Assembly (NCBI GenBank): GCA_905178155.1
Contig: CAJINV010000015.1
Location: forward strand, 824,390-885,926
DNA length: 61,537 bases
Direction: 5' to 3'
DNA from: Amoebophrya sp. A120
Lineage: Eukaryota > Protista > Dinoflagellata
The notes beneath the pieces are model-generated. The model was not told where the DNA came from. It ran no database searches and worked only from the letters and a program-made list of their open reading frames with translations. Positions 5,115-60,315 of the stretch are shown in pieces. Every line of letters begins with the position of its first letter. The stretch's first letter is position 1. Both the position numbers and the translations under genes were made by a program.

Positions 5115-8100
5115 CTAGTTCTCCTGGCGAGGAGCACCTGCTTGATCTACCACCACGTCTGTTTTATCAGCACCACACGCCGCACTCGCGGAGGACGATT
5201 CGTTTTTCGACCCGGCAACTACACCCGTGATGGCCTTGGTCGGAATGTAATTCGGGTTCCTCATGGCAGCCGCCCTTCCTTCCGGATATCAACACAAGCA
5301 AAAGCGTTAGCGTTAACGATTTTTACAGATTGCAGTCATGCATCACGAACATACATGCTATGCATTACAAATGCTGGCACCTTTTTAGATGCATTGCGGC
5401 AATGCATCTAAAAAGGTGCTGAATTTGTGATGCGGCAATGCCGCATTACAAATTCCGTTAACGTTAACACGTTTTCCTGTGATACCGGATACAGGTAAAT
5501 CATGCTTGGATCACGTCGATTCGTTGGCACGCTGGAGTCCCTTTGCGCGACGAAATTCTGCACATCGATGCGCCACGTCTCGAATTGTTTCCTGGTTTGG
5601 AAGTATTTTCTCAGCCTTCATCGCATTTTTTAACTCCAAGTAGTTCAAAACAATGCATATTCAAGTCAAGCTCATACCACAAAAGGAAGCAATGCACTTG
5701 TCACACAAAGCAGCAATGATCCAATGAAGTAACTCTACTTTCGTAAAAATACTTGAAGAATCTCCTCGAGTCGCCCTTTTTCATCAGTGGCGTTCCGTAT
5801 GGAAGCGTCAGGATCGAAATCGTCAAAGTTGAAATGATTTGTCATGCATAAAGTGCAAGACATGAAGCGCCTGTCTTGCCGGGATGGCAAGGGAGGCAGA
5901 TTACAAGCCTAATTAGGGTTTGGGATAGAGCTGCTAACGGAGCATGACAAAAGCAGTCAGTCTTCTGTGCCCGAACAACATGACAAATTGGATTCCGGTG
6001 CTCCATCAAACATTTGTCATGCGCCGCCTAGAAATTGGGCTTCCAACTGGTATCGATTTTATGCATCACAAGTTATTTCAACTTTGACGATTTCAATCCT
6101 GACACTTCCATATTCCTGGCCGGTCCGGTATTTCGAATTCCTGTCCGACGGCGACTCCTGACTGCGCTCTCTGCTCTTCACACAGCTCGCACAATATGCA
6201 ATACAAATTTGTTCTTGCCGTGTGCGACGTACAAAATGCATGTTGACATACTTCTGACTGTATGTAACAAGGAGCTTTGACATGCTGGATAGCTATAGCA
6301 ATGGCTGGATAGCTATACAAGTAGATGAAGACCACGAGTTTACTTGTCATACAAAGTGGTCGGTATTTTTTGTACATGCATCTCCGGCAATAAATTTCCA
6401 TTGGATACACAGCCGCTTGTAGAAGTTTGTCTGCTTGAAAGCACCGACTTCACCGTATCAAAATGAAAAATCCCCCCTCCCCATATCAAAACGGAAATTT
6501 GTGATGCTGATTTGTGGCCACAAATCAGCTTTGTATAGCGGAGAGGAATGGCGGCCAGATCCCCAGGCTAGGTAGGGGCTTATGTGTCTAGTTGTTCAGC
6601 ATGGCAAACGGCTCCCCTTTAGGCCTAACAGCATGAGAAATCGCTTCCATAATGGGGCGGAAGCTTCTGCCCTTGTCTTCTTGCAAGACAGATGTGATTT
6701 GTGGCCTCAAATCCGCAACACAAATTTTCGGAAACATACCTTTTCAATATGGGGAGGGGGGATTTTTCCTCTCAATACACCGGCATACCGCTCCAACTGT
6801 TTTTCTGGATCCAGGGACGCGGTCAGGTTGCTACTGGTCGTCATCGTGCTTTGCGCGTCATCTGGTGTCGTGGGATTTTAGCATGGTGGAGAAAAAAATC
6901 GTACTGACTTTGTCATGTGGAAATGCAAATGAAAAACTGAAAGTGAAAATCTTTTGTCATGTATACCATCCAGCGCAAGGTCTCGCTGCGCAATGGCATC
7001 CCTCCTGTGGTTCCGCTCCGGTCCGCCGTGCATGGTTCTGTTAGTTTGTGTTTGTGGGAATATTTGCCATGCGATACTGCAAGATAAGACGACGGCGCAG
7101 TTTTTCTTGTCATGCAAACCGAACCATGCTCGCTTCTGATTCTGAAGCGCTAGCGTGCCAGCATGAGAAAAAAACTGAAACCAGAAGCTGCTGTCTATAC
7201 TTTGTCTTTTTCTTGCTGGGTTTCTCTAAGACCAAGGACTCAAAAGACGCTGCGTCAGAAGCGGTGGTTGTTCGGTGCCGCTTGGAACCTTGATTCGCAC
7301 TATCGTGGACAAGCAGGCCGCCGATGAACTGATATTGATATTTTCGTGGCCATAGTTTTTTCTTTTTTTCCATAACTCGTGCTTTCATAGTGACCGAGAG
7401 GTAACTAGGAACTCAGAACAGAACTTCCTTTTCATTGTATGTATCTGTTCTTTGGACAATATCTAAATCTCCGTGCTGCATTTGCATGCGTTACGACTAC
7501 ATCAACTGTGCATGCATGCATGAGTCTTCTCCTGACTTAAGATCTTCCGGACATTTTGGAACTTACGGCACCAGAACAAAACAAAGTAAACATCATGCGC
7601 ACAAAAAAAACGAACACTTGGCAGAGCAAAAATTTCAATTTTTTTACCTCCGCGCCCTCCCGTATCGTCGGCGGCACACTGGTTTGTGAAACCATGGGAT
7701 CCATGAAGATGAAAGGCTGTTGCATTCCGGATGATGGCCTCGCTGGCGGAGCAAACATCGGCGGTCCCGGTCGATGACCGTTTAGTTGATTCGCCATCGG
7801 CGCGGCTCCTGCAGCTGCTCCGGAAGAGGTGGCAGAAGAGCTTGCGCAAGACGCGCTGGACGAGCACGAGAAATCAGTTCCCAGTCGTGAAGAAGATGCC
7901 ATTGCTCCTGCGCCCCCGACCTGTTCGGAGGTTGAGGAGGTAGTGCTGGATATGGTTTATCAAATGCAAATATGTCTGGTGTTTTGTCTGGAAGCAAGAC
8001 CTTGGCACAGCACAGCCACAGGGAAAACTTTTTGAAGAAAGAAAAGTAAAAGAGAACTACGTAGATACGCATGTAGAGAGAGATTGAAAGCATGCTATAA

Positions 8101-11100
8101 TGTCCACCGGTGGAACTGACTACTATTACTACTTGTGCTTGCACTTGCGCAACATTACATACAAATTGGGTGCAGTGAACTTCTGCCCACGGGGTCCCGC
8201 AGGCTCTACCAAGTTGCTACGCTGGCCAAAGCGCTAGGCACCTGGGAGCCTGTGGGTGCTCGCGCAGTAGTGTCATGGCCGTGCGAATAGCACACCGTGG
8301 GTGCATGCTCACTACTATTCGCTGACACTACTACCGTTCATGACCCTCTCCCCAAATGCGCATTCGAAAATAGTTAAGCTAAGAACTATCACAGCGCTCG
8401 AGTAAGGAAAAGGATCGTTACGAGCAAGAGCTTAATTAAAATAGATCAATGATTTTATACGGAAAATTTTTTTGTGACATGGAACACATGGGAAAACCTG
8501 CGTGACAAGTCTTGCAATGTTCCAGACCCAGACATACTTGCAATGCGTATGGTTTTGTTACTCACCATGCTCGAAGACAGGTTTTTGTTCTGGTCCATTA
8601 CAAGACTCGCTAACGCCGCGGTGGTGAGCTTGTTGGTTTCTGACGAGACGGATGATTGGTGTTCCACTTGGTAAGGACCCGCCTGAGAGACTACAGCATC
8701 ATGACCTCCTCCCGAAGTTGTGCCGGAGTTGCATTGGTCTTCCGTTCCCTCTTTCAGCTTCTTTTTCTGCGCCCAGACTGGGTGGAGCCTGTTCTCTTCC
8801 GCAGGTCTTGCTGCTGCGGCGGTGGTCGTGTTCTTCTGGTTCTCCTCCTCGGGATGCTGTTGAACTTCTAGGTCCGTGGACAACAGCGGCACTTTCGTAT
8901 TGAAATTCACAGGAGGGGCACAAGAAATACCTGCCGCACCACCAGCACCCAAAGCCGGAAATTCGTTTTCACTTTTAATATCCACGGGTGGTTTCTGGAT
9001 CATTTCCGGCTTTAATTCCTCCGTGATCTTTTCCCCGGTCGCCGCGAGCCGCAGTTTCAGCTCGTTCTCGTCCGTTTTTCGTAAATACTGCTCACACTCC
9101 CGCTGAAACACCGACCCGGGCGTTGCCAGCGCGGACACGGCCTGGTGCAGATTTGGTGGCATGAAGATGGGTTGGTCGCTGTCAAAGGTCGCAATGTCGA
9201 AATCAGGCGGGATCCAGATCTTTTCGTTGTTCAGCGCGATCAGAACCCCATCGCCGGTTTTTCGGGCGGTGAGCAGGGCCTTCTTCATTTCCTGTCTCAC
9301 TTCGTGCGGGATGAAAACCTGGTTGTGGAAAAGCGGATTGAGCTCGCCGGTTTCCTTATTTTCTGGCATCGCTGAACAAGAGGAAATAGAGGAACAGTTG
9401 CTCTGGTTCAAGAGACTGTGGTTGTAGCAGCTGCTGCTCGCGTTACTGCTGGCTCCAGAGATGTCAGAAGAAGCAGCTGCCCCCTTACGCTTCATTTTTC
9501 TTCCTCTTCGCGACGAAGATTCGACTGATTGCGGACCGGAAGAACAAGAACCTCCGGGGAAATTCTGGTCATTCGGGAAAAACATCATACCTCCTGGCGC
9601 ATTGTTTACTCCCAGTAACTGGTCGAAAGAGAGGAGGCTGCTGTCAACGCCACTTGCAGTGCCATTGTTTATTCCCCAGTGCGAAGTAGATCCTGCGCCG
9701 TTCTGTGGCCAGTTGAAACTGAAATTCTCCACGGAGTTGTTGTCAGATGCACCCCCAAACCCGGAAATAGAGGAGCAGTTGTCGCTGCCGTTTTCAAGGG
9801 AGCTGATATCAAACATGTCGTCAATTTCCGAATTGTTGCTGTTCACCGTGTTTTGCCGTCGAAGATCAGCTGCCCCAGCACCGTTAGGATCCTGATCTCC
9901 TCCGGCCGTATTCGTGCTGCTGGTGTCGCGGCCTCCGGGATTGATACTATCACTCGGCAGCGGGATCAGCTGCCCGGCCGCGATAAGGGCCGCGAGATCC
10001 TCGGGGCTTTGCTCAACTGCGGGTCTGTCGGCGCTACAAGAAGTGGACAACTTCATTTCCACATCTATGCTGTCAGCTGGCGGCGGTGGCGTTTTGCTGA
10101 GTGAGGAACTAGAATTCATGCCAGTTGCAGTGCTATCGCATGCAGCTCCTGCACCCGGCTGCTGCATAGAGCCCCCTGGAGGCCCTGCTCCGAACTCTGA
10201 ACTGGTACTAGTATTGTGATCCACCGCACTGACGGGCGTAACCGTGGTCATTGTCGTCGTGTGGTTTGCGGTCGGCATCTTATGCAATGCAAAAGCATCG
10301 TACTCGTAGTATTAATCGCAGATATGCATTACAAATACAAATCTCAACCCAAAAGTAAAACAGCATAACAAATCCTATTTCTCATGCTGAGCACATTTGC
10401 ATTGCAATTTATACTAGGAGACCACTACGATGTTTTTGCAAATCATACATCTGCAGGTCCAACAAGTTTTCCATGCGCAGCCCGTTGCTCGCGCCCGGGC
10501 ACCCGTTGAAGGAAAAGTCGTTTTCTTCCTTGAATAGAGACAGAGACTCGGAAGATGACATGAAGGATTTCTGCAACAGATTTTCTTTCCCGACGGTTTT
10601 GTTAAAAAACTCGCTGATTGGCTTGTTCAGATCCGCGTCTATTATCGTGGAAAAACTCGTGTCAAAAACGCCAGCCGGAAGCGGGTTGTTCTGACCTTGC
10701 TGGAGGTCGTACTGCTGATGGCCGTTCGTACTAGCGCTAAAGGCCTGCTCGTTGCTGTTGTGCGAAGGAGCGTTATTATTGTTGCTCATCCCCGCAGCAC
10801 TACTACTGGGTGAAGCAACTAGTCTCCCGAAGTTCCGCATCATCTTGTGATGCTCGATTTTTTGCGCGATCAAGTCCGGCCCGCCGCCGACAATGTCTTG
10901 CACTACCTCCGGGGGCAGTGTGTGAAACGTCGCCGGCTGGACGTGGACGTACAGCTGCTGTTGACCGGTTCCCGAGGAAAAATCTGCTCCTCCAGGTCCG
11001 CCCTTGCATGGATTTTCGCCTTTCTTGCCCGCGGCCCCTTTGCTCGATTTGGATTTTCCCTTGCCCTTCACAGCTTGTTTCCCAGCAGCACCGTCATGTT

Positions 11101-13850
11101 GACTACTCGCGGCTGCAATCGCGGTAGAAGAGGCAAAGTCATTACCGCCTTTGCCCTTTGACTGCGACCCTTGCTTTGCTTGCTTTGTCCCCTGTTTGTA
11201 CCCCTTGCTGTACCCCGCGGCTTTGCTCCAAAACAGGAGCTGCTGATCTGGCGGTATGGCCATAGAAGCACCGTCGCCTCTCGCAAACATAACCTGCTGC
11301 TGCTTGTTCCCCTTCTGCTGCTGCCGCTCCACGAAAGCGAAAGCTTCTTCGATCGCGCTCGTTGTTTCATGATCCACAGATGGTGTTCCGGCGTTGTTCA
11401 TGCTGTGAGGACCAGCGGGTGGGTTTTTTGGCCTGCGCCTGCCCCGCTTTTTCGCTTTCTTGCCAATCGGGTCTTGTTGTCCTGAAATGTTCATCATTTC
11501 AGAATCACCTGGCTCTACTTGAGATGTCGTTTCGTTTCGATCGTTTTGTTCGTCTTGTTGATCTCTTGACGAACCCAGGCTGATATCATCGTCGTCTTCC
11601 TCTCCCGCTTCGCTCGTGTGGTCCAGGGAAAGGTCTTCGACGTCTTGTATGTTGTCATCTACGAGGACAGGAGCGCTCTGCTCAGCAACCCCGTTCTGTT
11701 GGTGTTGCAGTTGCTTATCCACTACGGCGCCGTTCTGCAGCTGCTCAGCCTGTAGTTTATTTCCTCGTGCCCGCTCGGCTTCGGGCACGGCCCCTGCTAC
11801 CTTTTTCTTTTCCTTCGAAGCTGTGGTGGAGGAAGACGAGGAAGAGCTGCTGGACGATGTGGTCTTGACTAGCGAATGTTGCAACATTGCTTTGTCAACT
11901 ACATCAGGGTCCACTTCCTCGTGCTCCTTGTTTACTTCCGCTCCTGCACTAGTCCTTGACAACGCTGACAAACTGCTTGCCGGTGGCCGTGCGGTGCTTG
12001 TCTTTGATGTGTTCAACATCTCGGTTTTTGATCTACTTACCGGCTGGTCTTCACGTGGTCGAACAAGCTGCAAAGAACCGACACTACTTGTCGTCTTTCC
12101 GTTCATCGACGCAGCATCCGCCGCCCCTGCAACTGCGCTGCCATTCGACCTAGCGTTATTCATTGCCGCAGAGGACGAGCTGCTAGAAGACGACGAACTT
12201 CCGCCATTTTGCCGCTGCTTTGACGCAGCTGAAGCTACCACCTGGTGCAAGGTTCCTGCTTTGTTCGCACTGCTATTCGCTTGCTCCTGCTCCACATCCG
12301 AAGTGGATGAGGTTTTGTTATCCCGGTCCCTGACAAAGTCCGGCGACGCCTGAAGCAGCTGAATCCGCGTGGAAACCCGCTTTTTTCGCTCCATGCCAGA
12401 TGTTTTTGCATCTGGACGCTGGGCGCAATCAGGGCCGTCCTCTTTGGCTTTCGCGACGGCGACTACACCGTTTGCGGTCAGAGACGCAGTGCCAGCTCGC
12501 GATTTCCTTGCGACGCCGGATTTTCGTGCGGCCGCAACTTGCGCAGAGGCGGGCTCATCTGATGTTTTGAAGTGGTTTTGCCATGCGATATTGCTTCTAC
12601 TGCATCATATTGTCATTTTTCATTGAAATGAATCGACGCCATACTTTAATCATTAATTTTGGACTTGTTCGGACGCTAACACGACATGACTCTCGCATCC
12701 TTTACCTCCTCCCACCCCCGAATTCATATTCAAATCGGACGCCGCGCCGCCCCCTGCTGCCACCACTTCTGTCACGGAATCCTTCCTCTGCCGTTTTTTC
12801 ATCGGCCGGAGGAGCTTCTTACCCGTAACCTTGTCTTCCCCGAAGCACTCGAGCCGCTCCTGGGAACAGGCGTACTGGGGATTTTCGGTGCAGAGGGAAG
12901 AGAAGTCCGCGTTTGTGGTCGGTGGTCGGGCTTCGTCTTGTTGCCGTATTTTTGCGGGGAGGCCCTGAGGTAATTGAATTTTTGGACGTTTCATTTTTTT
13001 CCTGACGTGAATCGATGCACACGATGGATGTGTGTCACTATCTGTACGCATAGCCAGCCAGAGCTATGTCTAGATGAGTGCTATGGTACCATTTGTGCCG
13101 CCCCACTATTTGAATTATTCTCCGCTTCCGCAATTTCCTTCTTTCGCATTTTGACGGCCATCTTCAGCCTCTTCATCGGCTTCATCTCCCCATGCCCCGC
13201 TGACCCGTTGCTCGCCCCTGGATCCAGGCTCTTCAGAGCCTGCTGCATGCTCCGCTGCGAGTTTTCCACTTCGGACAAGGGCGCGTTTTGGTACGAATGG
13301 TCATCCGGGCGGATAAGGGGTGCACCAGCACGGAGGTGCTTTTTCGTAGTTTTGTTTCCCGACAGAGCATATGCTACGCAAAAGTATCGCATTCGCAATT
13401 ACAGATCTGCATGACAAATTGCCTTCCTAAGCATACGCTAAAAGTAAAACAGAATTACAAATTCCATCTATCATGCCAAGCACATGTGTAATGCAATCTG
13501 TACTAGTACAGTACGATACTTTTGCATTGCATAGAACACCGTTGTTATTGTTGTCACTTGACGTGCTGTCATCCTCATCGTCTTCGCTAAAGTCGTATGA
13601 AAGTGCACAACTCCCCCTCCCCCTCATTTGAATGCAAAATCCCAAATCCAGCTGCTGCCTTGTAGCACTGTTTGCATGACAAATCCTGGAAGCCCAAAGA
13701 GCACTACAATCCAGTGCAAATTTGTCACGCAAAACCGACGCTCTTGCGGATGCTTGTATTGCCGTTCATACTATACAAATGAGGGGGAGGGAGAGTTGTG
13801 CATTGTCATAAGTCGGCCCAGCGCCGACCGCGAACGGGGACAGCCGTCAT
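5115..13850 (-). CDS. Multi-exon hypothetical low-complexity (S/G/Q/N-rich) protein; 8 introners plus short conventional introns
   Basis: Starts MTAVPVRGRRWADFSEDDED at 13850. Removing elements at 13596, 13370, 10281 and 7958 joins frames (e.g. DLQ-MPTAN, NKT-ISSTTS). The 3' block 6880-5115 joins across elements 6456, 6195, 5798 and 5287 to stop TAG at 5115-5117. Links at 12600-13090 and 6880-7647 are unresolved, so this could be two genes. Confidence 0.65.
5287..5484. mobile_element. Introner family F (198 nt), non-canonical intron
   Basis: TAT..ATA ends, TIR containing CGTTAACG, DR CCGGA/CCGGA. Excision gives YLYP-EGRA in frame. Confidence 0.85.
5798..6112. mobile_element. Introner family E (315 nt)
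   Basis: ~38-bp TIR TATGGAAGYGTCAGGATYGAAATCGTCAAAGTTGAAAT, DR TTCCG/TTCCT. Confidence 0.9.
6195..6407. mobile_element. Introner family I (213 nt, diverged)
   Basis: TATGCAATACAAATTT..AAATTTCCATTGGATA, DR CACAA/CACAG. Frame KRL-CELCEE restored. Confidence 0.75.
6456..6777. mobile_element. Introner family D (322 nt)
   Basis: TIR containing GAAAAATCCCCCCTCCCCATAT, DR CACCG/CACCG. Confidence 0.9.
7958..8549. mobile_element. Introner family C, expanded to 592 nt by internal cargo
   Basis: TIR TATCAAATGCAAATATGTCTGG / CCAGACATACTTGCAATGCGTA, DR TGGTT/TGGTT. Excision joins ORF 8455-10287 to ORF 7537-7902 in frame. Confidence 0.8.
8168..8346. ncRNA. Candidate structured RNA (three-way junction) nested in an introner; family unknown
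   Basis: Closing stem GGGT..TGAAC/GTTCA..ACCC. Arm 1 CCCAC/GTGGG + AGGCTC/GAGCCT. Arm 2 GTAGTGTCA/TGACACTAC + GCGAATAG/CTATTCGC. Folded by eye only. Confidence 0.35.
10281..10447. mobile_element. Introner family A (167 nt)
   Basis: TIR TATGCAATGCAAAAGCATCGTA, DR CATCT/CATCT. Joins ORFs 10409-12394 and 8455-10287 in frame. Confidence 0.9.
13370..13533. mobile_element. Introner family A (164 nt)
   Basis: TIR ..GCAAAAGTATCG, DR GAGCA/GAACA. Frame restored. Confidence 0.85.
13596..13810. mobile_element. Introner family B (215 nt)
   Basis: ~35-bp TIR TATGA..GTGCACAACTCYCYCTCCCCCTCATTTG, DR AGTCG/AGTCG. Frame WAD-FSEDD restored. Confidence 0.9.
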
Positions 13851-17042: not shown

Positions 17043-17153
17043 GTATTAGATCATAATCTCGCTGTCCCCCGGTCGGTTCATCAATATTATACGATTTGCG
17101 CTTGCAATTCTTCCTCGATGCGCATCCACATGCACAACACCTTGCACGAGAGA

Positions 17154-17214
17154 TGCATGTCGCCCTAAGCGGAATCGTCTGCTTGCATGTCGCCCTAAGC
17201 GGAATCGTCTGCTT
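17154..17214. repeat. Exact 30-bp tandem duplication
   Basis: TGCATGTCGCCCTAAGCGGAATCGTCTGCT x2. Confidence 0.9.
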
Positions 17215-19553: not shown

Positions 19554-22500
19554 TCACAGCCCCTCCTCGTCCTCCTCCACCATTGCGTCGGGGATGATTC
19601 CGAACCTGCAGTTGACCAAAACAAAGGGAAAAACCAGCTTATCCCGACTGGAGTCGTACACGCCCCGCACCCGGTCGGCGTCCGTCATCAAAAAACCCGT
19701 TTCTGCCTCTGATAACGGCATCCAGTGGTGGCCTCGCTGCAGCTTGTTGCGCATGCGCTGTCGCTTCAGCATGCGGGCGTTGGTGTCAGTGGTAGCGGTA
19801 GGTGGTGGAGGGGGGATGGCAGTTGTAGCATTCATCCCAGCCGTTTGCGGAGTGGGGGACGAGGAAGCCGAAGCTGCGTGCTGTTGTGCAAATGATCCTC
19901 CTGCAGCTCCGCCTGCTGAAAGATAGTTGTTCTGATGCAGCTCTACCACCTTACTGCTCGATGACATCAAGTACACTGGGTAGGGTTCTGCTTCGAACGC
20001 CGTGACTTGGCTGTCGTGGTTGGAAAATTTCAGGTCCTTCGGGATGTTATGCATTGCAAAAGTATCGTACTAGTATAAATTGCAATACAAATTGACTCAG
20101 CATTACAAATTGAATTTGTAATGCGGATTTGCCTTTAGAAAAAGATTTGTAACGCATGAAAGCAATTAGTACGAGTACGATGCTTTTGCACAGGATAGAT
20201 GTTCACCAGTTTCGCGATCGAGTCGCGAATCTTGACTGCGTTTGAGGAGACAAGGCCTGCTCCGGTAGAGGAAGAGGGGTGATTGACGTTCTTGTTCCCC
20301 AGGTTGATGTAGTTCGATGTTTCTTCAGCAGAAGAAAAATCCTCAGCATCCTCGACCCCAGAGGAGTTGTCTTCGCGCACTGTGACAAACCGAGAGGATG
20401 TTGCGGTGGTCTTGTTCGTTCTTGTTCCGGCGCAAGATGGTCTCGAGGACGAGACCTCAGCTGCGGCATTTATTTTCCCTGTGGTTTTCTTTCGGGGTGA
20501 AGTGTGTGGAGGAGCGGAGCGGTCGTCGTACTGAGATCCTGTTACATCAAGTGCACTTCCTCCATGAGCTCGACCAGTTGCTGTGCCACCTGTTGAACTA
20601 GTCCCTAGCAGGAGTGAGCTGCACTTCTTCAGCTTATCCCTGGGCACATTCTTCCCCCCTGTCCACAGCAGGTTGCTGATGAACACCAAGCACTCCGGCA
20701 GGTCGTTCGCACAGGACACCGCCCTGACCGCCGTCGTCGGCACGTTCTCCTTCATAATTGCGTGTCGCCACAAGCCCCTGATCGTTCCCACGTGGTTCAA
20801 GCTGTGTAAACCACCAATCGCAAACACGAACGCGCGACTCGCGAAAACGGTCTGCATGAGAGAGAGCAACAATTTGGACAAATTATTCGTGATATGCAAT
20901 TGCACATTTTTCAGCAGCAACTCCAACTCCGCGGCGCATTCGCTGATCCGCTGCTCCAGAATCGTCGCCTGTGGGGTGCCATTCGCCGCGGAGTATAAGC
21001 TGTGTCTGCAAACGAGGGTCTTCAGTAATTCCTGCTGTTCCGGCGTACCGGAGTTCATTTCCGCCTCCGCCTTCCAAAAATTCGCGTTTCCCTGGGAGTA
21101 TCCCAATATGAAATGCAAAAGCATCGTACTAGTATAAATCGCATGAAAAATTCCCGCAGCATGACGAATAAAATTTGTAATGCGGATTTCCCTTAAGAAA
21201 AAGATTTGTAATGCATGACTGCGATTACTACGAGTACGATACTTTTGCAATGCATACCCAACCAGGCCCAGCAGTGCTTCCGGTTTCGGAGCGGTTTCAG
21301 CTGCGTCTGACGCTCGATCTCGCTGCCGCTTTCTAGTAGTGTTGTGTGGTCTTCGTGTAATTGATGTTCTTCATCAGGCGTGCTCCTGTAGTTCTCGTTC
21401 AGCGACAGTGCAGCGGATGATGTGTCTGTGTCAGTGGCATTAACATTATTCCCGTCTCCCGCTCGTTCTTCTTGCCGCAAGTGCGCCACAATCGCTTTCT
21501 GAATCTGCGACGAGTTGTACTCTAAGTGCCGCGCGGTTCCGGTGTCCGCCCGGACAATTTTACAGCCGAATTCTTGCATCAACCGCGCGAAGGTGCTCTC
21601 CATCTCCTTTCCCTCTGCCCCCTCGGTAATGACACCCATGGCAGTGATCAGGGAAAAGTGCTGCAGATCGCAGTTTTTGTTCGTGTTCTTCTTCTTCGCT
21701 GTTTCGTTTCCAATTTCAAACCCGTACAACAGAAAGCTCAGTGGGTCGGCCTGCATGGCTATTCTGTCCTCCTCGTAGAAATAGGTGACATGGATGATAT
21801 CGAAGAGCAGACACAGGAGACCACTGGTGCCGATTTTATTGGAAGAGGATGGTGCTTGTGACAGCAAAGCTTCCAGATTTGACGAACTGTTTTTCGTGGT
21901 CGTCCTCGTTGATGCGTTATGCTGCTCCATCGCCGCTTTTGCGTTGTCAACGTACTCGAAGAACTGCTTATACCACTTTGCTGCAAAAGAGCCACCTCCT
22001 TCCGACTGTACTGCTGGTCCCTTCGGATCCTTATCCTCTCTGGAAGCTCCCGCTGGCAGTGCTGAAGCCGATGCCGGTGTCGTGGGTGGTCCTGTTAATG
22101 CTCGTCCGCGAGGTTCTTCACTCTTCCGAGAATTATCCGCCTCAAGAACGTCACCCCTATTCAACGTCACTTGCGTCACGAGCCATATGGAAGTGTCAGA
22201 ATCGAAATCGACAAAACAAAATCGATGCCAGTTAGAGCCTCAGTTTCCAAGTGCCGCATGAGAAATTTCGGGAGCACCCAAATCCAGTCTCTCATGCTGT
22301 TTGGGCAAAGAAGACTGCTCCTGTCATGCTACTCGGGCAGCACATTGCTTAGCCCTAAACAGGCTTGCAATCGGCCCCATTTGCCTGTTCCCCAATACAG
22401 GCCTTGCGTGCCCTACATTTTATGCATTACAAATTTTTCGACTTTGTCGTTTTCGATTCTGACACTCCCATAAGCCACTGCCTAACCGTTTCCACGTTTT

Positions 22501-45757: not shown

Positions 45758-46206
45758 ATTCTTCGAGAAAATATTTTGCAATTGTAGACGTAAATTACAA
45801 CAAATAAAGGTCAAGATCGGTACGTCGAAACGCCTAGACAAATTTCGATCATAACAAATAGAGTCGATGTGAAATCATTTTTTCTATAATAATTGCAAAA
45901 CTACTTTTGCAGCAAGACAAATGGCGCGCATCAATTTTTTCCACGAGTTGTAGCGGATTGATTCATCATGCCGAATCCGCAAGACAGAAACGGCCTGTTA
46001 TGCAGATTCCACAAGTCACCAAATTTCCACTTTACTCAAACCCGCCCTTGTTGCGGTACGCGTACTTCTCCGGGTCGGGGTATGGATTGCAACTCGCTGA
46101 TTCTTGTTCTGGACTTTGTAGTCATGCGAAATAAACACGGATCAGAAACAGAATACCAACTTCTCATGCGCCATGACAAAGACTGAACAACAAGAACTCG
46201 GTAATA

Positions 46207-48450
46207 TTACTTAGTTTCTGTTTCATAAAAACCCGTCCGGTCTGCTATGAGATTCTCAAACGTTACACTCTCAACTGTTGCATGATTTGTCACGCAAAAC
46301 TAGCACTATCATCTACACGATCAAGCTGCTCTGCATGACAAATTCTGGACGAATGGCCAATTAGGCTGATAATCTGTGCCAAATCTGTCATGCAAGACGC
46401 GCCATGCCCCCTCTTCATTTTTCCCATTCTTGCATCACAAATCCATGTAACAGTTGAGAATGTAACATTTGAGAGCGCCATATCTGCCCAGCGCGGCGTC
46501 GAAGACGGAGAGTTTTCCTTCCCGGAGTATGAAAGGAAAGCGAGAAGTTTGTAATGCTGAGGCAGAAGTAGGACAGAGAGTTTGTCTTTTTTGTCATGCG
46601 TACAACGCAGGAGCTGAAAGCTTGTCATGCCAGCCTCGCAATACAAATTTATTTTTTCTCGTCTCTTTTCATAAACCGCTTCATGTAGGGGTCGGTGAAG
46701 GACCACTTGTTTTTGTACTTTTCCACCATGTCCAAGCTTATGGAACCGGAAAATTTCTTTGTCATGCGGAATGATCATGACAGCACGCATTGCAACTCAT
46801 ATAAACAAGTTTGTAATGCAGAGATACCATATGCAAGCATAAGCAACGTGTGCGTTATTTCCCCCATGACAAATCCAAATCGCTTGCATTTATTTCCTCT
46901 TTGTTCTTTGTCATGCGAGAAAGAACCCATGATGACACGAGTCGCAACTACTGAAGATACGACTTTGTAATGCAGGGACACCATATGAATGCAAGGCGCG
47001 TTTGCGTTTCCCGCATGACAAATCATTTTACTCTTCCTACTATCGAACTCGGACTCGTACTCCGGCGGTTTCATCGTGCGCGGATCCGCGTGGGCGGAGT
47101 GCTGATTTGATCAGATTTGATGTCATGCATCCAGCACAAGGATGAAAAATCATATCTGTCATGCACGCCTCTGCATGAGGAACAAAAACAAAATCAACTT
47201 TTATACCGTCTGACTCTTGTAGTACTCGTCCTTGGGACCCAGGTCGTCGCGCTTGTAGGTGTCAATGTCCCGAATCTTCGTGTTGGAATCGATCATTTCC
47301 TTGGCTATCAAATGCAAAAATGTCTGGGTCTGGATGGTTCTTTCCAGGTTTGTCATGCATGTTTTGCATGACCCATCCCATCATGCCTGTGATGCATAAC
47401 CTGGCATCACTGATTTTTAGAGGGTGAGGGATTCCTGATGCCTATTCTGCATGAGAAATGCCCTCCCCTTGTACAACAAACTGGACTTCCTTTGCTCCTC
47501 ATGCAATACAGATTTTTTTCGAATATAATTCGAAGACAACATCACAAGTTACAATCTTCCAGACCCAGACACTTCTGCATTTGATATTGGCGGCAAATTC
47601 ACCATACCCGGAGTTTGTCGTCGTGAGGAGTATGCATACGGAGATTTTCTTCTTTCTATCATGCCGTTCTTGACGCGCATCACAAATAGACACGACTTCA
47701 TGTTCATTTTCTTGGAATGGGTGCTCTGCATGACAAACCCGGTCTGCGTCTGAGATGCATCAGCAGACATGCTATGTCGAGTTGAAAAAGAAAATCTCTG
47801 TTCATCCATAAACGTCGAAGCGGCTTTCCCAGGCAAGGAGTACAACTTCCGCACACGGTAGTCGTGCTGAAACTGCTTGTCCATCCTGATTTGTCATGCA
47901 ATTTTGCAATGATAGAGTATGCCTGTCATGCTCCCACGCATGAGAAATAAGAGAAACATCATTCATTGCGAAACGATTTAGTGTTGCATCAGTTTTACCT
48001 ATAATTTGCCATGCATTTTTCCAGCGCAAACAGCACCATCACCACATCAATAACCTTACCGTTTGTCTACCCAGGGACCGACCAGCGTGTGTCCGCTGTA
48101 AATCGCCTTTTATCCTGAGTAAAAACGTACCCACACCAGAGTCAGGATGGGGATTTTGCAACACAAACCTAGGAGTTTTGTGAGTCACGCATGACAAGTT
48201 GCACTCTGCAGTGTAGTGCAGGTTAGCAAGTGCAGCCGCGTCACAGATTCATCTGCTCATCCTGTTCACAGCATCACAAATTCCAAAACACGATTGGCAA
48301 TGGCTCTCGTGGGGATACGCATTACAAGTCTTCCTGTCTTTGCAAATCTGCATTACAACTCTGGTGTGGGTACGTTTTTACTCAGGATACCTTTTTCAGC
48401 TTCATCTGCGTGTCAGTCAGCTTCGCAGGCTCCTGTGCTTGGTTCGGCAT
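46207..48450 (-). CDS. Small multi-exon protein resembling NWE-motif ciliary microtubule inner proteins
   Basis: Spliced N-terminus MPNQAQEPAKLTDTQMKLKKAIYSGHTLVGPWVDKR resembles YSxxTLxGNWxExR. Later exons TTTNSGYGEFAAKEMID..., ...WADRTGFYETETK*. Several internal junctions are unresolved. Confidence 0.55.
46246..46482. mobile_element. Introner family G (237 nt, reverse orientation)
   Basis: Family G TIR, DR TCTGC/TCTGC. Confidence 0.9.
46528..46673. mobile_element. Introner family M (146 nt), DR decayed
   Basis: TIR TATGAAAGGAAAGCGAGAA / TTCTCGTCTCTTTTCATA. Flanks CGGAG/AACCG do not match. Confidence 0.6.
47306..47586. mobile_element. Introner family C (281 nt)
   Basis: TIR TATCAAATGCARAARTGTCTGGGTCTGGA, DR TTGGC/TTGGC. 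Confidence 0.92.
48111..48389. mobile_element. Introner family L (279 nt)
   Basis: Perfect 32-bp TIR TATCCTGAGTAAAAACGTACCCACACCAGAGT, DR CCTTT/CCTTT. The only copy that can be read as GT-AG. Confidence 0.93.
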
Positions 48451-50675: not shown

Positions 50676-52469
50676 CTACCGTCGTTTCCGCACCGCCGTC
50701 TTCTTTCCTCCCTGAGCTGCGCGCAACTTCTGCAATTTCACAGACGCTTTGTTCGTCTTCGCACTTTTATTCCCCTTGTTCAACGCCTCTTCTTTCTCTT
50801 TCTTACACGTTAACTTGAACAGCTCACTCGCCTTCTGCGGGCAAATCTCGCGCCTCACAGTGAAGTCCTGCTTTTTGAAGATCGATTTATTGGTTCCACT
50901 ACCTCCGCCCCGAATTTTCCGCAACAGCTTTTCCGCACGGGAGGTCTTCGCAGGACCAGAAGTACTACTACTAGGCGCTTGAGCTGTCGCCAATGCCGTC
51001 GCAGTGCCCGCAGTAGTACCAGCAGCAGCGGATGAGAAAATCGACTTCATCGGTCCTCCAGCACCTCCTGGTGCTGTTCCTGCTGAAGAGAAAATGCTCC
51101 CCGGCGCAGGCGTCGTGAAAATAGAAGCGGTTGCATTTCCTGTGCTGGACGAAGGGTTCGACTTCATCAAAAAACCATTCGCACTACTAGCACTGGTAGC
51201 CCCCGGTGTTTTCCCCTCCAAGACGAATTCCTTCAACTCCTTTTCAAATTCCTCCAATTGCGCAAAGGACGCTTTAAACATGGTGTTCCCGGCGTTCTTA
51301 TGCATTGCAAAAGTATCGTACTAGTATAAATTGCATTACAAATTGACTTAGCATTACAAATTAAATTTGTAATGCTGATTTACCTTGAAAAATAAATTTG
51401 TAATGCAGAAATGCAATTACTACGAGTACGATACTTTTGCAGAGGATAGTTCTCCTTCACCTTCAGCCTCGCGGTTTTCGCCAGTTTGCAGTGGTTGACG
51501 AGAAATTCGGCGCACTTCTTCTGCATCTCCGGGTGACGGACCCAGCCGAACCGCAGGGACGCCTGCCGCTGCCGTTGGTCGAGCAACTGCAAGGTCATTT
51601 CCGCCCCATTGTACCCCACATCCAGGAGCTGATTTTTGCTGGTTGTATTTGGTTTATTTCCAATTGCAGCCGTAGTGCTGCGGCCCCCACCACCAAACAT
51701 GAAAGACAGCGCATCGCTCGGTGTTGGTTGTGCTGTTGCGGTACCATTTGCATTTGTTGCACTTGCTCCTCCTCCTGGAGCAGCTTTACTGGTCTTTGTT
51801 CCGCTTGGTGCGCCCGTCTCCTTGGCGTGCTTCTTGCCCTCCGACAAGTCTTGGCAAACCGCCTGCGTTATGGAGTTCTCAAGCGTTACATTCTCCTCTG
51901 TTACATGAATTTGTCATGCAAAACTACCATCATCATCCACAAGATCAAGCTGCTTCGCATGACAAATTTGCGAAGGGCTACACACCACCTAAATCTGTGC
52001 GGGATTGGTAATGCAATTTTTGCAATCTTCCTCCTTTGGCTTTTGCCATTCTTGCATTACAGATTCATGTAACAGTTGAGAATGTAACGTTTGAGAACAC
52101 CATATGCGTCAGATCGCTGTTCCGAAACTGCTCGCCTAATTTCTTCTTGTTGGAAGAGGTGGCAGTTGAGTTTTTGCTTTGCTTCCCTTTTATATTCGTG
52201 ACAGAGGAAGAGGAGGTCTTCTTCTTATTTGTAGTCCCCTTGGAGGTCGTGGCTCCAACGGTTGCTCCGGTCGTGGAAGAAGATTTGTTATTCATCATCT
52301 TCATTTTCTTGGTTCCACCACCCGCGGCGGCTCGTCCAGCTCCGGGCGCTGCCATGGATAAACCTGCTTTTGGCAATTTTTCAATGAACTTTTGTAGTCG
52401 GAGAAAGTGGTACTGCTTCTGGTCGCTCAACTTGTTGTATTTACTTCTTACTTCTTCCGGTGACAACAT
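50676..52469 (-). CDS. Hypothetical Lys-rich basic protein (~465 aa), 2 introners
   Basis: ORFs 52065-52472, 51380-51847 and 50676-51305 join in frame (DLT-QAVC, KEN-AGN); spliced length 1398 nt. Confidence 0.8.
51299..51448. mobile_element. Introner family A (150 nt)
   Basis: Family A TIR, DR GTTCT/GTTCT. Confidence 0.92.
51869..52104. mobile_element. Introner family G (236 nt, reverse orientation)
   Basis: Family G TIR, DR TGCGT/TGCGT. Confidence 0.92.
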
Positions 52470-54724: not shown

Positions 54725-54991
54725 TATCAAGTGCAAAAATGTCTGGCTCTGGAAAAGTGTAAACTTGTCATGCAGATTCTCCATGACCCATGAGGTGTGG
54801 AATGCGGGGCTTAGCCTGACAGACTCTGCGGGGTCTCTTCCATGCCTATCCTGCATGAGAAACTGCCTTCCATCTTGGTCAAAAGTGGACAGCTTTGGGC
54901 ACTCATGCAACACAGATTTTTGCATGCTTCAGAATTACCATGACAAGTTGCAACCTTCCAGAACCAGACCCAGACATATTTGCATTTGATA
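54725..54991. mobile_element. Introner family C (267 nt) in a duplicated 3'-UTR-like segment
   Basis: Family C TIR, flanks CCACT/CACT. Absent from the paralogous site near 56880. Confidence 0.8.
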
Positions 54992-55138
54992 CACTCTAGC
55001 TCTTACATCTCATACTCATCCCGCCTTTCCATTCCGTTATGGGTACTGCTTCCATCCCGCCTTTCCAATCCGTAGTCGGAGAAAGTGGTACTGCTTCTGG
55101 TCGCTCAACTTGTTGTATTTACTTCTTACTTCTTCCCG

Positions 55139-55445
55139 TATGGAAGTGTCAGAATCGAAATTAACAAAATCGAAATAATTTGCGATGCATAAAATGTAGG
55201 GCACTGGAGGCCTGTATTGGGGAGCAGGCAAATGAGACCGATTGTAGGCCTGTTTAGGGGTATACAATGTGCTGCCAGAGTAGCATGACAGGAGGACTCT
55301 ACTTTGCTGAAATAGCATGACAGACTGGATTTGAGTGCTCCCAAAATTTGCCACGCGCCAATTGGAAACTGAGGCTCCAACTGACATCGATTTTGTGCAT
55401 CGCAAATTTTTCGACTTTGTCAATTTCGATTCTGACACTTCCATA
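55139..55445. mobile_element. Introner family E (307 nt), close paralog of the 59918 copy
   Basis: Family E TIR, DR TCCCG/GCCCG. Confidence 0.9.
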
Positions 55446-55486
55446 GCCCGCCCGAAAATTGTAGAGGCGAAGGCTCGCGAGCTTTT

Positions 55487-55775
55487 TATCCTGTGCAAAA
55501 GTGTCGCACTCGTATTGCAATCATGCATTAGAGTGGGGTAACAAACCTCCTGCAGGTAGTTGCCGGCCAACTTCTCATCCACCCGGCCGGGTGGATGAGA
55601 AGTTGGCTTGGTTGGCGTGTCCGCGTCACCCGCCCACCCGGCTCCGTCCAAAAAAAAATTTGTAATACAAATTTTTTTCTGAAGCTAAATTCGCATATAC
55701 AAATTTTATTTCTCATGCTGAGGAAATTCGTAATGCTAATGCATTTATACGAGTACGATACTTTTGCAGTGCATA
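55487..55775. mobile_element. Introner family A (289 nt) with a nested ~135-nt insert
   Basis: Family A TIR, DR CTTTT/CTTTT. The insert carries a 42-bp perfect palindrome at 55566-55607. Confidence 0.85.
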
Positions 55776-56887: not shown

Positions 56888-59800
56888 TCACATCTCATAC
56901 TCATCCCGCCTTTCCATTCCGCCGCGGGGAAGCTGATCCATGGATAGCTTTCGGTCTTCTTGTCCACCTCCGTCGCCATAGAAGGAAGATGCTGATGAAG
57001 TTCCAGCTTCCTCCTTCCCGACTCCGGATAATTGTTCTCTCGCACTTGCACTTGGTGGGCCACCTTTTCCTTTGGATTTTGTTCCACCTTTCATCGACGC
57101 TTTAGTATTGGTCTTTCCCTGCTCGTTGTCGCGATCTTCATCAACTCGTCGCGACCGTCGTCCAGCTTGTGGCTCTTGATTCACGACAGTTGCAGGAACA
57201 GCCGTGGAGCTGCTCGCCGTGTTGTTCGCTTTTTGCTGAGAAGAGAGCGAAGATGGTGGTCCTCCTGGTCGCGCTAACGGTGTTCCTGATGTTGTTCCGT
57301 CTCGACTTCCACCTTGCTTGTTTATTTTACCTTCCTCCAGTGCGCGATCTTGTTCCGAAAGAGCTCTACTTCTGCGACTGGGAACGAGGGCGTCGATCTG
57401 CAGATCGAAGACTTGCAGCACGTGCCCCGCTCCAGCGCCCAAGCGGAATTCTAATGCCACGTTTTCGGTGGTCCCTTTCGCTCCGAGCTTGTTCAAAAAG
57501 TTGAGACTCCCAGTGCTGACGCCGTTGGGGTCTGTGTGCGGCATCCATCCGTCGCACCCCGTGATGACGTGGACCTGCCGCTCTCGGGTTTTCGGCGCAG
57601 GCTCGATGCGGACCAGGTTATTGGAGTAGATACCATCGGCATCGTAAGAAAAAAGTGCTACACTTACACCTTTCTCATGCAAGAGCGGCAACACAGACAA
57701 CCTTTCTCATGCAGGAAATGCTTAGGAGCCTCGTTTCCTTCCTGTTTTCTCTTATGATCTTCGCGTTACAAGTTTTCTCTGCCACGCAGAGAAAATTTGT
57801 GATGCGGAAACTCCAACAAGTGTGTAACTGTATATACTTTTTTCTCATGATAATCGGCTGTCATGCGCTTGATCTGCAAGGATCCCTTGGATTCGCCCCA
57901 TCCCTGGTCTTTCCAATCGATATACACGCGGATGGCGACCACCTTCTGCGTGTAAGAAAACGTGGTTACGTTATGGGACTCTCAAATGTTACATTCTCAA
58001 CTGTTACATGAGTTTGTAATGCTAGAAGAGCAAAAGTCAAAGGGGGAGGGTTGCGCCTCTAGCATTACAAATTCCGCACAGATTTCAATGCTGTTTAGCC
58101 CTTCGGGAATTTGGCATGCGAAGTCGCTTCACAATGTGAATCGAATGATGATGTTAGTTTTGCATGACAAATCGTGTAACAGTTGAGAATGTAACGCTTG
58201 AGAACGCCATATACGTACTGCAAGAGGTCGAAATCGTCGGAAAACGGGGGTCCGTTCCGGTTATGGCGTTCTCAAACGTTACATTCTCAACTGTTCCATG
58301 GATTTGTAATGCAAGAACAGCAACAGCAAAAGTGGCAATATTGCAGCTTTCGCATCACAGATTTGCCGCAGATTATCATGCTGCTTGGCCCTTCGAAAAT
58401 TTGTCACGCTAAGCACCTTGATCAAGTGGATGCTGATAGCAGTTTTGCATGACAAATCCGTGTAACAGTTGAGAATGTAACAGTTGAGATGAACGCCATA
58501 CCGGTACAACGGTGCTTGCGACCAGCGGAATATCTCATGGGTGTACTTAGAGGCCTCGTACAGGTCTTCCTTGTTGGCCACACCTGACGTGCTTAGAAGA
58601 TCGGCGGCCACATCTTCTAGAACTTGAATCCCACAGACCGCTATTTGCTCCGTCGTCGCCTGGCCTAGGCGGCTTTATCAAATGCAAAAATGTCTGGGTC
58701 TGGGAGAACTTGTGATGCTGTCTCTGGATTCGAAAAAGATTTGTATTGCATGACCAGTAAGAGGAGTAGATTTTGTGCTCCGCGGAAATGGCATTTGTCA
58801 TGCGGAATAGGCATGAGGAAGCGCTCTAAAAATCTGTGATGCTACGGCATGCATCACAGACATCATGGGTCATGGAAAATATGCATGACAAATCTAGATT
58901 TTGTTGTTGAAATCTTCCAGACCCAGGCATTTTTACAGTTGATAGGCTTTGGTCCCAGGCAATCCGGACACTCTCCGCCTGGTTGAGGGAAGGTATTTCG
59001 GTCAGGGGAATGTCTACAAAGCGGTAGTTATCGTCGTACAAATTCTCCAACGGGCCGGGTACTCGATTGCTCTCACTGGGATCCAGTATTGCCTGAAAAT
59101 TAACCATCCCCATCCACTTTTTGCATGACAGACACAGAATTTTATACATGTTTTGCATGACAAATTGGATGGGGATGGTTAATTTTCAGGGAATATCCAG
59201 GCTGCCAACCTGATGACCCGTGCCGACCATGTATCAAAATGAAAAACCCCCCCTCCCCATATCGAAACGAGATCTGTGATGCTGGATTTGCGCACACGCA
59301 TCAGATTTGTCTTGCTGAAGGGGACGGCAGGCCTACGTCAAGCCTGAGTAGAGAGGTTTTGGCGTAGGCGCTTAGCATGAGAAACGTCCGCGCTTTGGGC
59401 CAAACCGCATTACAAACCGCCTCCATAATGCGGCGGAGCCTGTGGAGTTGCCGTCTTGCAAGACAGAGATGATATGTGGTCGCAAATCAGCATTGCAAAT
59501 TTTCTGCGACGTACTTACCTTTTCGATATGGGGAGGGGGGATTTTTCCTTACGATACCAGGCACGGCGCGCTCCCCACACCCGACCCCGCCGCGCAAATC
59601 TGCACTATGGGAAGATTCTCAAACGTTACATCCTCAAACAATAATGCAAGAATGGCAAAAGTGAAAGGAGGAAGACGAAGATTTTTTTTGCGCCTTTTGC
59701 ATTACAGATTTCATCGGACGGATAATTCTAGTGCTATTTAGCGCGTCGAGAAGTTGTCATGCGAAGAAGGATTGATGTAGTTGATCGTGTGAAGAGTGAT

Positions 59801-60264
59801 AGTGCTTTATTTGCATGACAAATCATGTAAGAACGGTTGAGAATGTAAGAACGTTTGAGAACGCCATATCCACGTAAGCATTCTTGTACCACAGGGACTT
59901 GACCGGTTCGACGCCCGTATGGAAGTGTCAGAATCGAAATTGACAAAATCAAAATAATTTGTGAAGCATAAAATGCAGGGCACTGGAGGCATGTATTGGG
60001 GAGCAGGCAAATGAGACCGATTGTAAGCCTGTTTAGGGAATGCAATGTGCTGCCAGAGTAGCATGACAGGAGCACTCTACTTTGCTGAAGTAGCATGACA
60101 GACTGGATTTGGATGCTCCCAAAATTTGTCATGCACCACTTGGAAACTGAGGCTCCAACTGACATCGATTTTGTGCATCACAAATTTTTCGACTTTGTGA
60201 ATTTCGATTCTGACACTTCCATAGCCCGCCCGAAAATTGTAGAGGCGAAGGCTCGCGAGCTTTT
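56888..60264 (-). CDS. Multi-exon hypothetical protein with a WKDQGWGxxKG...GAGAGH domain; 5' end missing or disrupted
   Basis: Seven introner excisions give a continuous frame KLASLRLYNFRAG-VEPVKSLWYKNAYV-..-SLD-PSES..WDQS-RLG..LYR-NGPP..LQYV-TTFSYTQKVVAIRVYIDWKDQGWGESKG. The junction at 57660-57860 is unresolved. Confidence 0.7.
57972..58211. mobile_element. Introner family G (240 nt)
   Basis: Family G TIR, DR TACGT/TACGT. Confidence 0.92.
58262..58500. mobile_element. Introner family G (239 nt)
   Basis: Family G TIR, DR CCGGT/CCGGT. Confidence 0.92.
58676..58944. mobile_element. Introner family C (269 nt)
   Basis: Family C TIR, DR GGCTT/GGCTT. Confidence 0.9.
59087..59195. mobile_element. 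Introner family J (109 nt)
   Basis: 30-bp TIR TATTSCCTGAAAATTAACCATCCCCATCCA (1 mismatch), DR TCCAG/TCCAG. Confidence 0.92.
59232..59556. mobile_element. Introner family D (325 nt)
   Basis: Family D TIR, DR CCATG/CCAGG. Confidence 0.9.
59606..59868. mobile_element. Introner family G (263 nt)
   Basis: Family G TIR, DR TGCAC/TCCAC. Confidence 0.88.
59918..60223. mobile_element. Introner family E (306 nt)
   Basis: Family E TIR, DR GCCCG/GCCCG. Confidence 0.92.
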
Positions 60265-60315
60265 TATGCATTGCAAATATGTCTGGGTCTGGAAGAATGC
60301 AACTTGTCATGCTGA
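60265..60315. mobile_element. Introner family C, single end (truncated)
   Basis: TATGCATTGCAAATATGTCTGGGTCTGGAAG with no partner TIR in the window. Confidence 0.7.

What the first reader, a model, noticed from the sequence alone, without database searches (positions are those of the whole stretch)
5362..60312. One internal motif, GCAT[GTC]ACAAA / TTTGT[ACG]ATGC, shared by otherwise unrelated introner families
Seen in families with different TIRs and bodies: F 5362, B 13674, A 20100, E 23461, C 24236, G 27393, H 28487, I 29875, D 31096, J 33866, K 38003 and L 48271. It usually occurs several times per element and in both orientations, and is scarce by eye in long exons and in the large intergenic TIR elements. 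Inference: a common protein-binding site, either for a shared transposase or for a splicing factor that marks these introns. Presence on both strands would let an element work whichever way it inserts.
Basis: partly seen in the sequence, partly recalled or inferred. Interest (0 to 1): 0.82.

Follow-up and report, generated by a model that had tools for sequence, protein, structure and literature searches.

The report
Phased motif marks parasite's transposon introns
Almost every transposon-derived intron in this stretch of a marine parasite's DNA carries several regularly spaced copies of one 10-base motif, kept even in old spliced introns that have lost their insertion scars, so it is likely the binding site of a host protein that would mark these unusual introns for removal.

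Summary
The motif is real: 81 exact matches against 0.62 expected. The window is Amoebophrya (A120-type introners: TAT…ATA ends, 5-bp target duplication). A weight matrix finds about 20 copies/kb in 39 young elements of 12 families, against 0.25/kb in exons and 0.39/kb between genes.

Three new points:
(1) Copies sit on a ~16.5-bp lattice (gaps ~16, 31-33, 47-50), P 0.013-0.021 after merging related families.
(2) Six RNA-confirmed old introns with randomised target duplications keep 19 copies/kb (20 found, 8 or fewer expected under neutral decay), which favours host selection over a transposase-only site.
(3) No RNA polarity is required: 15 of 90 elements in coding frames carry one orientation only, pointing to double-stranded recognition.

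Best reading (0.45): a host DNA-binding protein coats these introns and helps splice them. The protein, and any role in splicing, are untested. Families are not all unrelated. Side result: all 14 RNA-mapped introns fit 1 base + TAT…ATA + 4 bases.

The parts
5287..5484 (.). family F element, 4 motif copies
   Evidence: TIR+5-bp TSD; PWM
5798..6112 (.). family E element, 5 copies
6456..6777 (.). family D element, 5 copies
10281..10447 (-). family A element, 5 copies
13370..13533 (-). family A element, 4 copies
13596..13810 (-). family B element, 2 copies
20048..20197 (-). family A introner, spliced out with one TSD, 5 copies
21107..21256 (-). family A introner, spliced out with one TSD, 5 copies
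22186..22472 (-). family E element, 4 copies; bridged by an RNA contig together with 22558-22707
22558..22707 (-). family A element, 4 copies
23116..23279 (-). family A element, 4 copies
23317..23623 (-). family E element, 6 copies (145+,177+,209-,258+ show the lattice)
24115..24369 (-). family C introner, spliced, antisense copies only (4)
25386..25535 (-). family A element (one end reads CTA; added by eye), 5 copies
27297..27547 (-). family G element, 4 copies about 48-57 apart
28258..28569 (-). family H element, 7 non-overlapping copies
28636..28795 (-). family F element, 3 copies
29620..29768 (-). family A element, 4 copies
29833..29983 (-). family I element (related to A), 4 copies at 32/33/31 spacing
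31043..31363 (-). family D element, 6 copies
31399..31554 (-). family A element, 5 copies
33835..33955 (-). family J element, 2 copies, sense only
37799..38133 (-). old element K (TSD 3/5), only 2 copies; inferred intron joining two ORFs
41464..41789 (-). family D element, 5 copies
41846..42166 (-). family D element, 6 copies
46077..46228 (-). old non-canonical intron o1 (T+TAT…ATA+CCCC), TSD 0/5, 1 copy
46246..46482 (-). family G introner, spliced, next to a 12-nt microexon, 4 copies
46524..46674 (-). old non-canonical intron o2, TSD 1/5, 4 copies
46735..47040 (-). old intron o3 (GT donor, ATA+AGCT end), TSD 0/5, 7 copies
47102..47206 (-). old intron o4, now GT-AG, TSD 1/5, 2 copies
47306..47586 (-). 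family C introner, spliced, 5 copies
47627..47811 (-). old non-canonical intron o5, TSD 1/5, 2 exact antisense copies only
47886..48059 (-). old intron o6, now GT-AG, TSD 2/5, 4 copies
48111..48389 (-). family L introner, spliced, 6 antisense copies (gaps 31,49,33,48,31)
51299..51448 (-). family A introner, spliced, 5 copies
51869..52104 (-). family G introner, spliced, 4 copies
54725..54991 (.). family C element, 4 copies
55139..55445 (-). family E element, 5 copies; a loose RNA end reads across its empty site
55487..55775 (.). A-type ends with an unrelated middle (M), 4-5 copies
57972..58211 (-). family G element, 4 copies
58262..58500 (-). family G element, 4 copies
58676..58944 (-). family C element, 6-7 copies
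59087..59195 (-). family J element, 2 copies 32 apart, antisense only
59232..59556 (-). family D element, 6 copies
59606..59868 (-). family G element, 3 copies
59918..60223 (-). family E element, 5 copies

Best explanation
The motif is a conserved, regularly spaced 10-base signal inside Amoebophrya's spliced transposon-derived introns, and it is likely the binding site of one host protein that would read it as double-stranded DNA, pack along the element in ~16.5-bp steps and mark it for splicing. Shown: the elements leave the RNA exactly (1 base + TAT…ATA + 4 bases); nearly all carry the motif about once per 40-75 bp; the copies are phased; old introns keep them; either RNA polarity suffices. 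Inferred: a protein binds; it binds DNA rather than RNA; it acts on splicing, plausibly co-transcriptionally and in place of the U1 snRNA that was not detected in this genus; insertions that carry the array are tolerated in genes, which is why families with different TIRs all have it. The same protein may also help the elements move.
For: Enrichment 81 against 0.62; PWM>=8 density 19.9/kb in young elements, 19.2/kb in six old introns, 0.25/kb in exons, 0.39/kb intergenic, with the PWM trained on young elements only. Splicing seen in contigs of runs X3, X4, X6, X7; the nine joins of one gene give an open 177-codon frame. The old introns match their would-be TSD at 5 of 30 positions and have no family among 211 elements. 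Simulated neutral decay leaves 8.3 hits at d=0.2, 5.2 at d=0.3 and 0.4 at d=1, against 20 seen. Motif columns differ from family consensus at 0.123 against 0.255 for the body; position 5 varies like the body but is A in only 16 of 642. Best period 16.5: P=0.001 over 24 groups, 0.021 over 18 merged groups, 0.013 for the window alone; spacers differ between families; 5 of 12 gaps in non-family clusters are 32-34. Polarity: 8 antisense-only and 7 sense-only among 90 coding-frame elements; 12 sense and 8 antisense copies in old introns; only 354 of 798 copies are predicted to pair in register with another copy. Inner TIRs are family-specific while the motif is shared. U1 not detected in A25/A120 (PMC7789003 section 10).
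Against: No protein, binding or splicing assay. The old-intron test rests on six introns of one gene, chosen after its motif cluster was seen; two other old elements hold only 2 copies in 335 bp and 2 in 592 bp (splicing not checked). Three inferred GT-AG introns have no hit at PWM>=5, so the motif is not needed for all splicing. A strong copy at 45912 stays in the 3' UTR of the RNA, so it is not sufficient. Within-family conservation does not separate transposition from splicing: body divergence is the same in copies with 5, 4 or <=3 TSD matches. The intronic-versus-intergenic comparison failed for want of cases (1 non-coding element of 129). There is no 10.5-bp helical peak (0.09), which a simple DNA-face model would predict. 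Some families are related, so part of the lattice may be inherited. TSD loss may be sped up by selection on splice sites. All RNA evidence is from contigs of one sample whose RNA status the tool guessed.
Confidence: 0.45

Rival explanations
1. The motif is an internal binding site for one shared transposase or transposition cofactor that mobilises all families, and it has no role once a copy is fixed.
For: All families share TAT…ATA ends and a 5-bp TSD. Orientation-free, phased sites suit a DNA-bound complex; first outward copies cluster at 31-33 and 40-43 bp from the ends. Precedent: Lemi1 proteins bind subterminal repeats of the Emigrant MITE cooperatively (PMC1636448, abstract only).
Against: Old introns with randomised TSDs, three of six without a detectable TIR, keep full motif density. 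Copies fill the whole element rather than its ends. No transposase among 6 window ORFs or 64 locus ORFs, but only about 250 kb were seen.
Confidence: 0.2
2. The motif is read in the pre-mRNA, as a duplex between opposite copies or by RNA-binding factors or a guide RNA, and acts as a splicing enhancer or branch region.
For: It is confined to introns. About 45% of copies are predicted to pair with another copy, and position 5 agrees in 115 of 177 such pairs (0.65 against 0.36, inflated by the folding itself). The TNAC core resembles a branch-point consensus (recalled). 16.5 equals 1.5 turns of an A-form helix (recalled).
Against: Spliced introns exist with antisense copies only and 15 of 90 elements have a single polarity. 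There is no fixed distance to the 3' splice site. A, the base a normal U2 pairing would favour before the branch A (recalled), is the excluded one.
Confidence: 0.17
3. A host DNA-binding protein binds the array for a chromatin or transcription purpose (elongation through hairpin-forming inserts, or silencing of the elements), and the TAT…ATA stem alone directs splicing.
For: Same data as the best explanation: host-level retention, no polarity. Splice sites are fixed by the ends in all 14 mapped introns.
Against: The motif is nearly absent from the large intergenic TIR elements and other intergenic DNA (6 hits in 15,257 bp), where a silencing mark would be expected as well.
Confidence: 0.15
4. 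The motif is a relic of one ancestral element or tandem repeat and is decaying neutrally.
For: A-I and N-P are clearly related, G-B and D-E/H weakly; all families share terminal features.
Against: Motif columns are half as variable as the body; density stays at 17-19/kb across divergence quartiles; old introns exceed neutral expectation; after masking, 2 of 78 family pairs align; spacers are unlike each other.
Confidence: 0.03

Closest known systems
Amoebophrya A120 introner elements (Farhat et al. 2021, PMC7789003)
   Same: Ends TAT + 7 variable bases + AAA-type, short direct repeats, non-canonical splice sites, many families, RNA-supported removal, co-oriented genes.
   Different: The main-text sections read (10, 11, 12, 16; 12 of 17 term passages) and the supplement text searched report no shared internal motif, no spacing rule and no fixed splice register ('intron border position remains unknown'). 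Figures 3, 4, S19 and S25 could not be seen and may show the motif.
MITEs with subterminal transposase sites (Emigrant/Lemi1, PMC1636448; En/Spm TnpA and hAT subterminal repeats, recalled)
   Same: Short motif repeated in direct and inverted orientation inside a non-autonomous TIR element.
   Different: Here one motif spans families with different inner TIRs, fills the whole element, follows a ~16.5-bp lattice and persists in old host introns.
Euglenid nonconventional introns (review PMC11282704, passages)
   Same: TIR-derived pairing joins the ends; conserved triplets sit a fixed few bases inside the splice sites (+4..6/-8..-6 there; +2..4/-7..-5 here).
   Different: No repeated internal motif is mentioned in the passages read.
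TIR-flanked A120 elements with integrase-like ORFs (Gozashti et al. 2025, PMC12130899, passages)
   Same: Same lineage; a 5-bp TSD would suit an integrase-type enzyme (recalled).
   Different: No such ORF-bearing element was found here; the text has 0 hits for 'subterminal' and 'internal motif'.

Membership tests
Amoebophrya A120-type introner | Terminal inverted repeats starting TAT, mostly TAT-N7-AAA | tested here: met
   TAT columns differ at 3 of 786 positions; families E and G depart from the AAA part
Amoebophrya A120-type introner | Short direct repeat (TSD) at the boundaries | tested here: met
   5-bp TSD perfect in 107 of 156 family members, one mismatch in 36
Amoebophrya A120-type introner | Removed from RNA | tested here: met
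   14 introns mapped from contigs of one sample
Amoebophrya A120-type introner | Repeated in families across the genome | tested here: met
   same families in 172 further elements from JACKZZ01-type loci; summed contig depth over elements in run X1 is hundreds to thousands of times the flank depth
Amoebophrya A120-type introner | Host is Amoebophrya A120 | tested here: inconclusive
   nearest named relative of a protein from the sister assembly is Amoebophrya sp. A25 at 53%; strain inferred from TIR pattern only
Subterminal transposase-binding repeat of a MITE | Confined near the ends | tested here: not met
   copies run through the whole element
Subterminal transposase-binding repeat of a MITE | Bound by a cognate transposase | not testable with these tools
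   no transposase found in ORFs scanned
Subterminal transposase-binding repeat of a MITE | Decays once the copy is immobile | tested here: not met
   20 hits in 1,043 bp of six TSD-randomised introns; two other old elements are motif-poor
Spliceosomal branch-point sequence | One RNA polarity in every intron | tested here: not met
   antisense-only spliced introns
Spliceosomal branch-point sequence | Narrow distance to the 3' splice site | tested here: not met
   positions vary widely among the 14 introns
Spliceosomal branch-point sequence | Complementary to U2 snRNA | not testable with these tools
   A120 U2 is shown only as a figure (S14); Rfam finds nothing in the window

The most novel reading that the evidence does not exclude
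Amoebophrya defines most of its introns by a DNA-level code: a phased array of one protein on the gene, possibly a domesticated transposase domain, tells the splicing machinery where to cut in place of U1, so any mobile element carrying the array becomes an instant intron in either orientation.
Probability: 0.3. Interest if true: 0.93.

Novelty: new variant of a known kind. Interest (0 to 1): 0.74.

Why it matters
How Amoebophrya removes tens of thousands of introns that lack GT-AG, with no U1 detected, is an open question (PMC7789003). A shared internal site with a spacing rule, plus a fixed splice register, gives a defined bait for pull-down and concrete genome-wide predictions. If the site is read on DNA, intron identity would be written at the DNA level, and it would explain why so many different transposon families could become harmless introns in one lineage.

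Tried and rejected
No whole genome is held for the window, so no genome-wide count was possible; the sister assembly's records could not be opened by handle. No RNA holder was listed on record; raw RNA run X9 laid only 86 partial reads and was not used. IMG/VR: the paired-motif scan gave 123+ loci with no sign of the 31-33 spacing, read as chance; two TIR patterns gave 0. No Pfam family in 6 window ORFs, no homologue for one window ORF, no Rfam match. A tandem-repeat origin of the lattice was rejected because spacers are unlike each other. 10.5-bp helical phasing was not seen. Intronic versus intergenic decay could not be tested. The TSD<=3 class was contaminated by cross-family hits and was redone. 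Programmed DNA elimination was rejected: X1 contigs run from unique flanks into the elements, while the other runs also skip GT-AG introns. Likeness of the core to ApiAP2 (TGCATGCA) or paired-domain sites is recalled and untested; one search was seen as a listing only. The exact-motif literature search listed 30 of 185 papers, none on this subject by title.
Full report
1. Observation. All twelve cited coordinates hold the motif. GCATBACAAA occurs 81 times (39 on +, 42 on -) against a mean of 0.62 and a maximum of 3 in 100 dinucleotide shuffles. A search for TAT…ATA inverted repeats with a 5-bp duplication gave 40 candidates. I dropped 3 (two internal or nested, and the long 7958-8549) and added 2 (25386-25535 by eye, 54725-54991), leaving 39 elements in 12 families. 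They cover 9,059 bp and hold 69 of 82 GCATNACAAA. A weight matrix trained on these young elements gives, at score >=8, 180 hits in 9,059 bp, 4 in 16,147 bp of long exons and 6 in 15,257 bp of intergenic DNA.

2. Organism and extra data. The ends match the description of Amoebophrya A120 introners (PMC7789003 section 11). All 39 window elements have BLAST matches in the fetched loci (72-94%). A protein from that assembly has Amoebophrya sp. A25 as its nearest named relative at 53%, so the window is Amoebophrya, likely A120-type. These loci gave 172 more elements, with 0 in 15 shuffled loci. Elements holding the anchor pair were excluded from all later statistics. Two families absent from the window (N, P) also carry the motif; across 13 families, 94-100% of members have at least one copy, at one per 38-74 bp. 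One of four singletons has none.

3. These elements are spliced. Contigs of runs X3 and X4 lack 20043-20197, 21102-21256 and 24110-24369, that is element plus one TSD. At 45.8-52.6 kb, four runs of one sample share 10 of 11 listed joints (the eleventh, in X4 only and inside an element, was set aside). One gene has nine introns, including two around a 12-nt microexon, and the joins give an open 177-codon frame. Three of the nine are young elements; six are old. All 14 mapped introns fit one register: 1 base + TAT…ATA + 4 bases. Three old introns fix it without ambiguity, and two that are now GT-AG keep it. The runs' RNA status is the tool's guess, but they skip GT-AG introns as well, while X1 contigs run into the elements.

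4. Are the families unrelated? After masking the motifs, 2 of 78 family pairs align by BLAST. Profiles show A-I and N-P clearly related and G-B and D-E/H weakly so. Deep common descent is therefore not excluded.

5. Selection on the motif. Within 11 family alignments, motif columns differ from consensus at 0.123, the body at 0.255 and TIR positions 11-30 at 0.098. Position 5 varies like the body (0.28) but is A in 16 of 642. Density stays at 17-19/kb across divergence quartiles. This does not tell transposition from splicing, because body divergence does not rise with TSD mismatch (107, 36 and 13 of 156 members with 5, 4 and <=3 matches) and so mostly predates insertion. The discriminating evidence is the six old introns. 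Their TSDs match at 5 of 30 positions, three have no detectable TIR, and none belongs to a family among 211 elements, yet they hold 20 hits in 1,043 bp. Simulated neutral decay of young elements leaves 8.3 hits at d=0.2, 5.2 at d=0.3 and 0.4 at d=1. Against this: the six are in one gene, chosen after its cluster was seen; old elements 37799-38133 and 7958-8549 hold only 2 hits each; three inferred GT-AG introns hold none and a fourth holds one; and a strong copy at 45912 stays in the 3' UTR.

6. Spacing. In the window alone, one random member per group, consecutive gaps of 31-33 average 15.9 against 2.7 under random placement (0 of 2000), 47-50 average 7.9 against 2.2 (P 0.003), and 19-30 are depleted (4.1 against 12.9); 15-18 are not enriched. 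Those bins were chosen after inspection, so I used a periodogram tested against the null maximum over all periods. The best period is 16.5, with P=0.001 for 24 groups, 0.021 for 18 groups after merging relatives and 0.013 for the window's 14 groups. There is no peak at 10.5. Spacers differ between families. In ten non-family clusters of the sister assembly, 5 of 12 gaps are 32-34.

7. DNA or RNA. Of 90 non-anchor elements in open frames, 74 carry both polarities, 8 antisense only, 7 sense only and 1 none. Spliced introns 24110-24369, 48106-48389 and 47627-47811 are antisense-only at score >=9. Old introns keep 12 sense and 8 antisense copies. About 45% of copies are predicted to pair with another copy. 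A single-stranded RNA signal or branch point is thus unlikely, and double-stranded recognition, most simply on DNA, fits best. This step is inference.

8. Mechanism. Most likely (0.45) a host protein binds the motif on DNA, packs along the element in ~16.5-bp steps and helps the splicing machinery cut at the TAT…ATA stem. U1 was not detected in this genus (PMC7789003 section 10). Only array-bearing insertions would be tolerated in genes, so all successful families have it. Rivals: transposition-only site (0.2), RNA-level signal (0.17), other host chromatin or transcription role (0.15), neutral relic (0.03). No transposase was found in 6 window ORFs or 64 locus ORFs.

9. Literature. PMC7789003: abstract, sections 10, 11, 12 and 16, 12 of 17 term passages, supplement part 2 of 5, and a term search of the supplement with 0 hits for GCAT, ACAAA and 'internal'; its figures were not visible and may show the motif. 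PMC12130899, PMC9860276 and PMC11282704: passages only. PMC1636448: abstract. Searches were seen as listings and showed no report of this motif; subscription journals are largely outside the library. The scan's earlier notes returned two single-family intron cores in other genomes and nothing for this genome; they did not change my reading.

10. Verdict. The finding is real and richer than first described. The introners are known; the pan-family phased motif, its retention in old introns and the fixed splice register appear new. New variant of a known kind, interest 0.74.

Noticed in passing
window 46077-48389 and other mapped introns: Fixed splice register: intron = 1 base + TAT…ATA + 4 bases in 14 of 14 mapped introns (3 unambiguous); old introns appear to drift to GT and AG in the same register, two ending AAATCAG and two ending ATACTCC.
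   Followed up: yes
window 46229-46240: 12-nt microexon between two introner-type introns, kept in all four runs.
   Followed up: partly
window 45900-48450 (-): 177-codon gene with nine introns, all introner-type; its protein was not identified.
   Followed up: partly
window 20051, 22561, 25389, 51302: One TIR variant of family A is itself TAT plus a one-mismatch motif, in register with the published TAT-N7-AAA pattern.
   Followed up: partly
window 34211-34296 and about 12559-12644 (-): Inferred GT-AG introns that begin GTAT; the first also ends ATA+TCAG, like matured introners.
   Followed up: partly
window 7958-8549: Family C-type ends with a perfect TSD around a 592-bp, motif-poor middle; a GTGAGT donor lies just outside one end.
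   Followed up: partly
window 46735-47040: Old intron looks by eye like an internal tandem duplication of about 150 bp.
   Followed up: no
window 1-960: GC-rich tandem array with a unit of about 91 bp.
   Followed up: no
window 2627-3740 and 60427-61249: Large intergenic inverted-repeat elements with ends unlike TAT…ATA and almost no motif; GC-rich blocks also at about 17.5-18.7 kb and 52.8-54.1 kb.
   Followed up: no
window 52380-52900, 54990-56400, 59914-60300: Recently duplicated and shuffled gene fragments, including a 93% identical pair that spans a family E element; RNA loose ends map to the 55-kb copies.
   Followed up: partly
window 61440-61537: Short tandem repeat of 20 bp at the window end.
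   Followed up: no
L201:5335-5377: Inferred GT-AG intron in the sister assembly with two antisense copies 32 apart.
   Followed up: no
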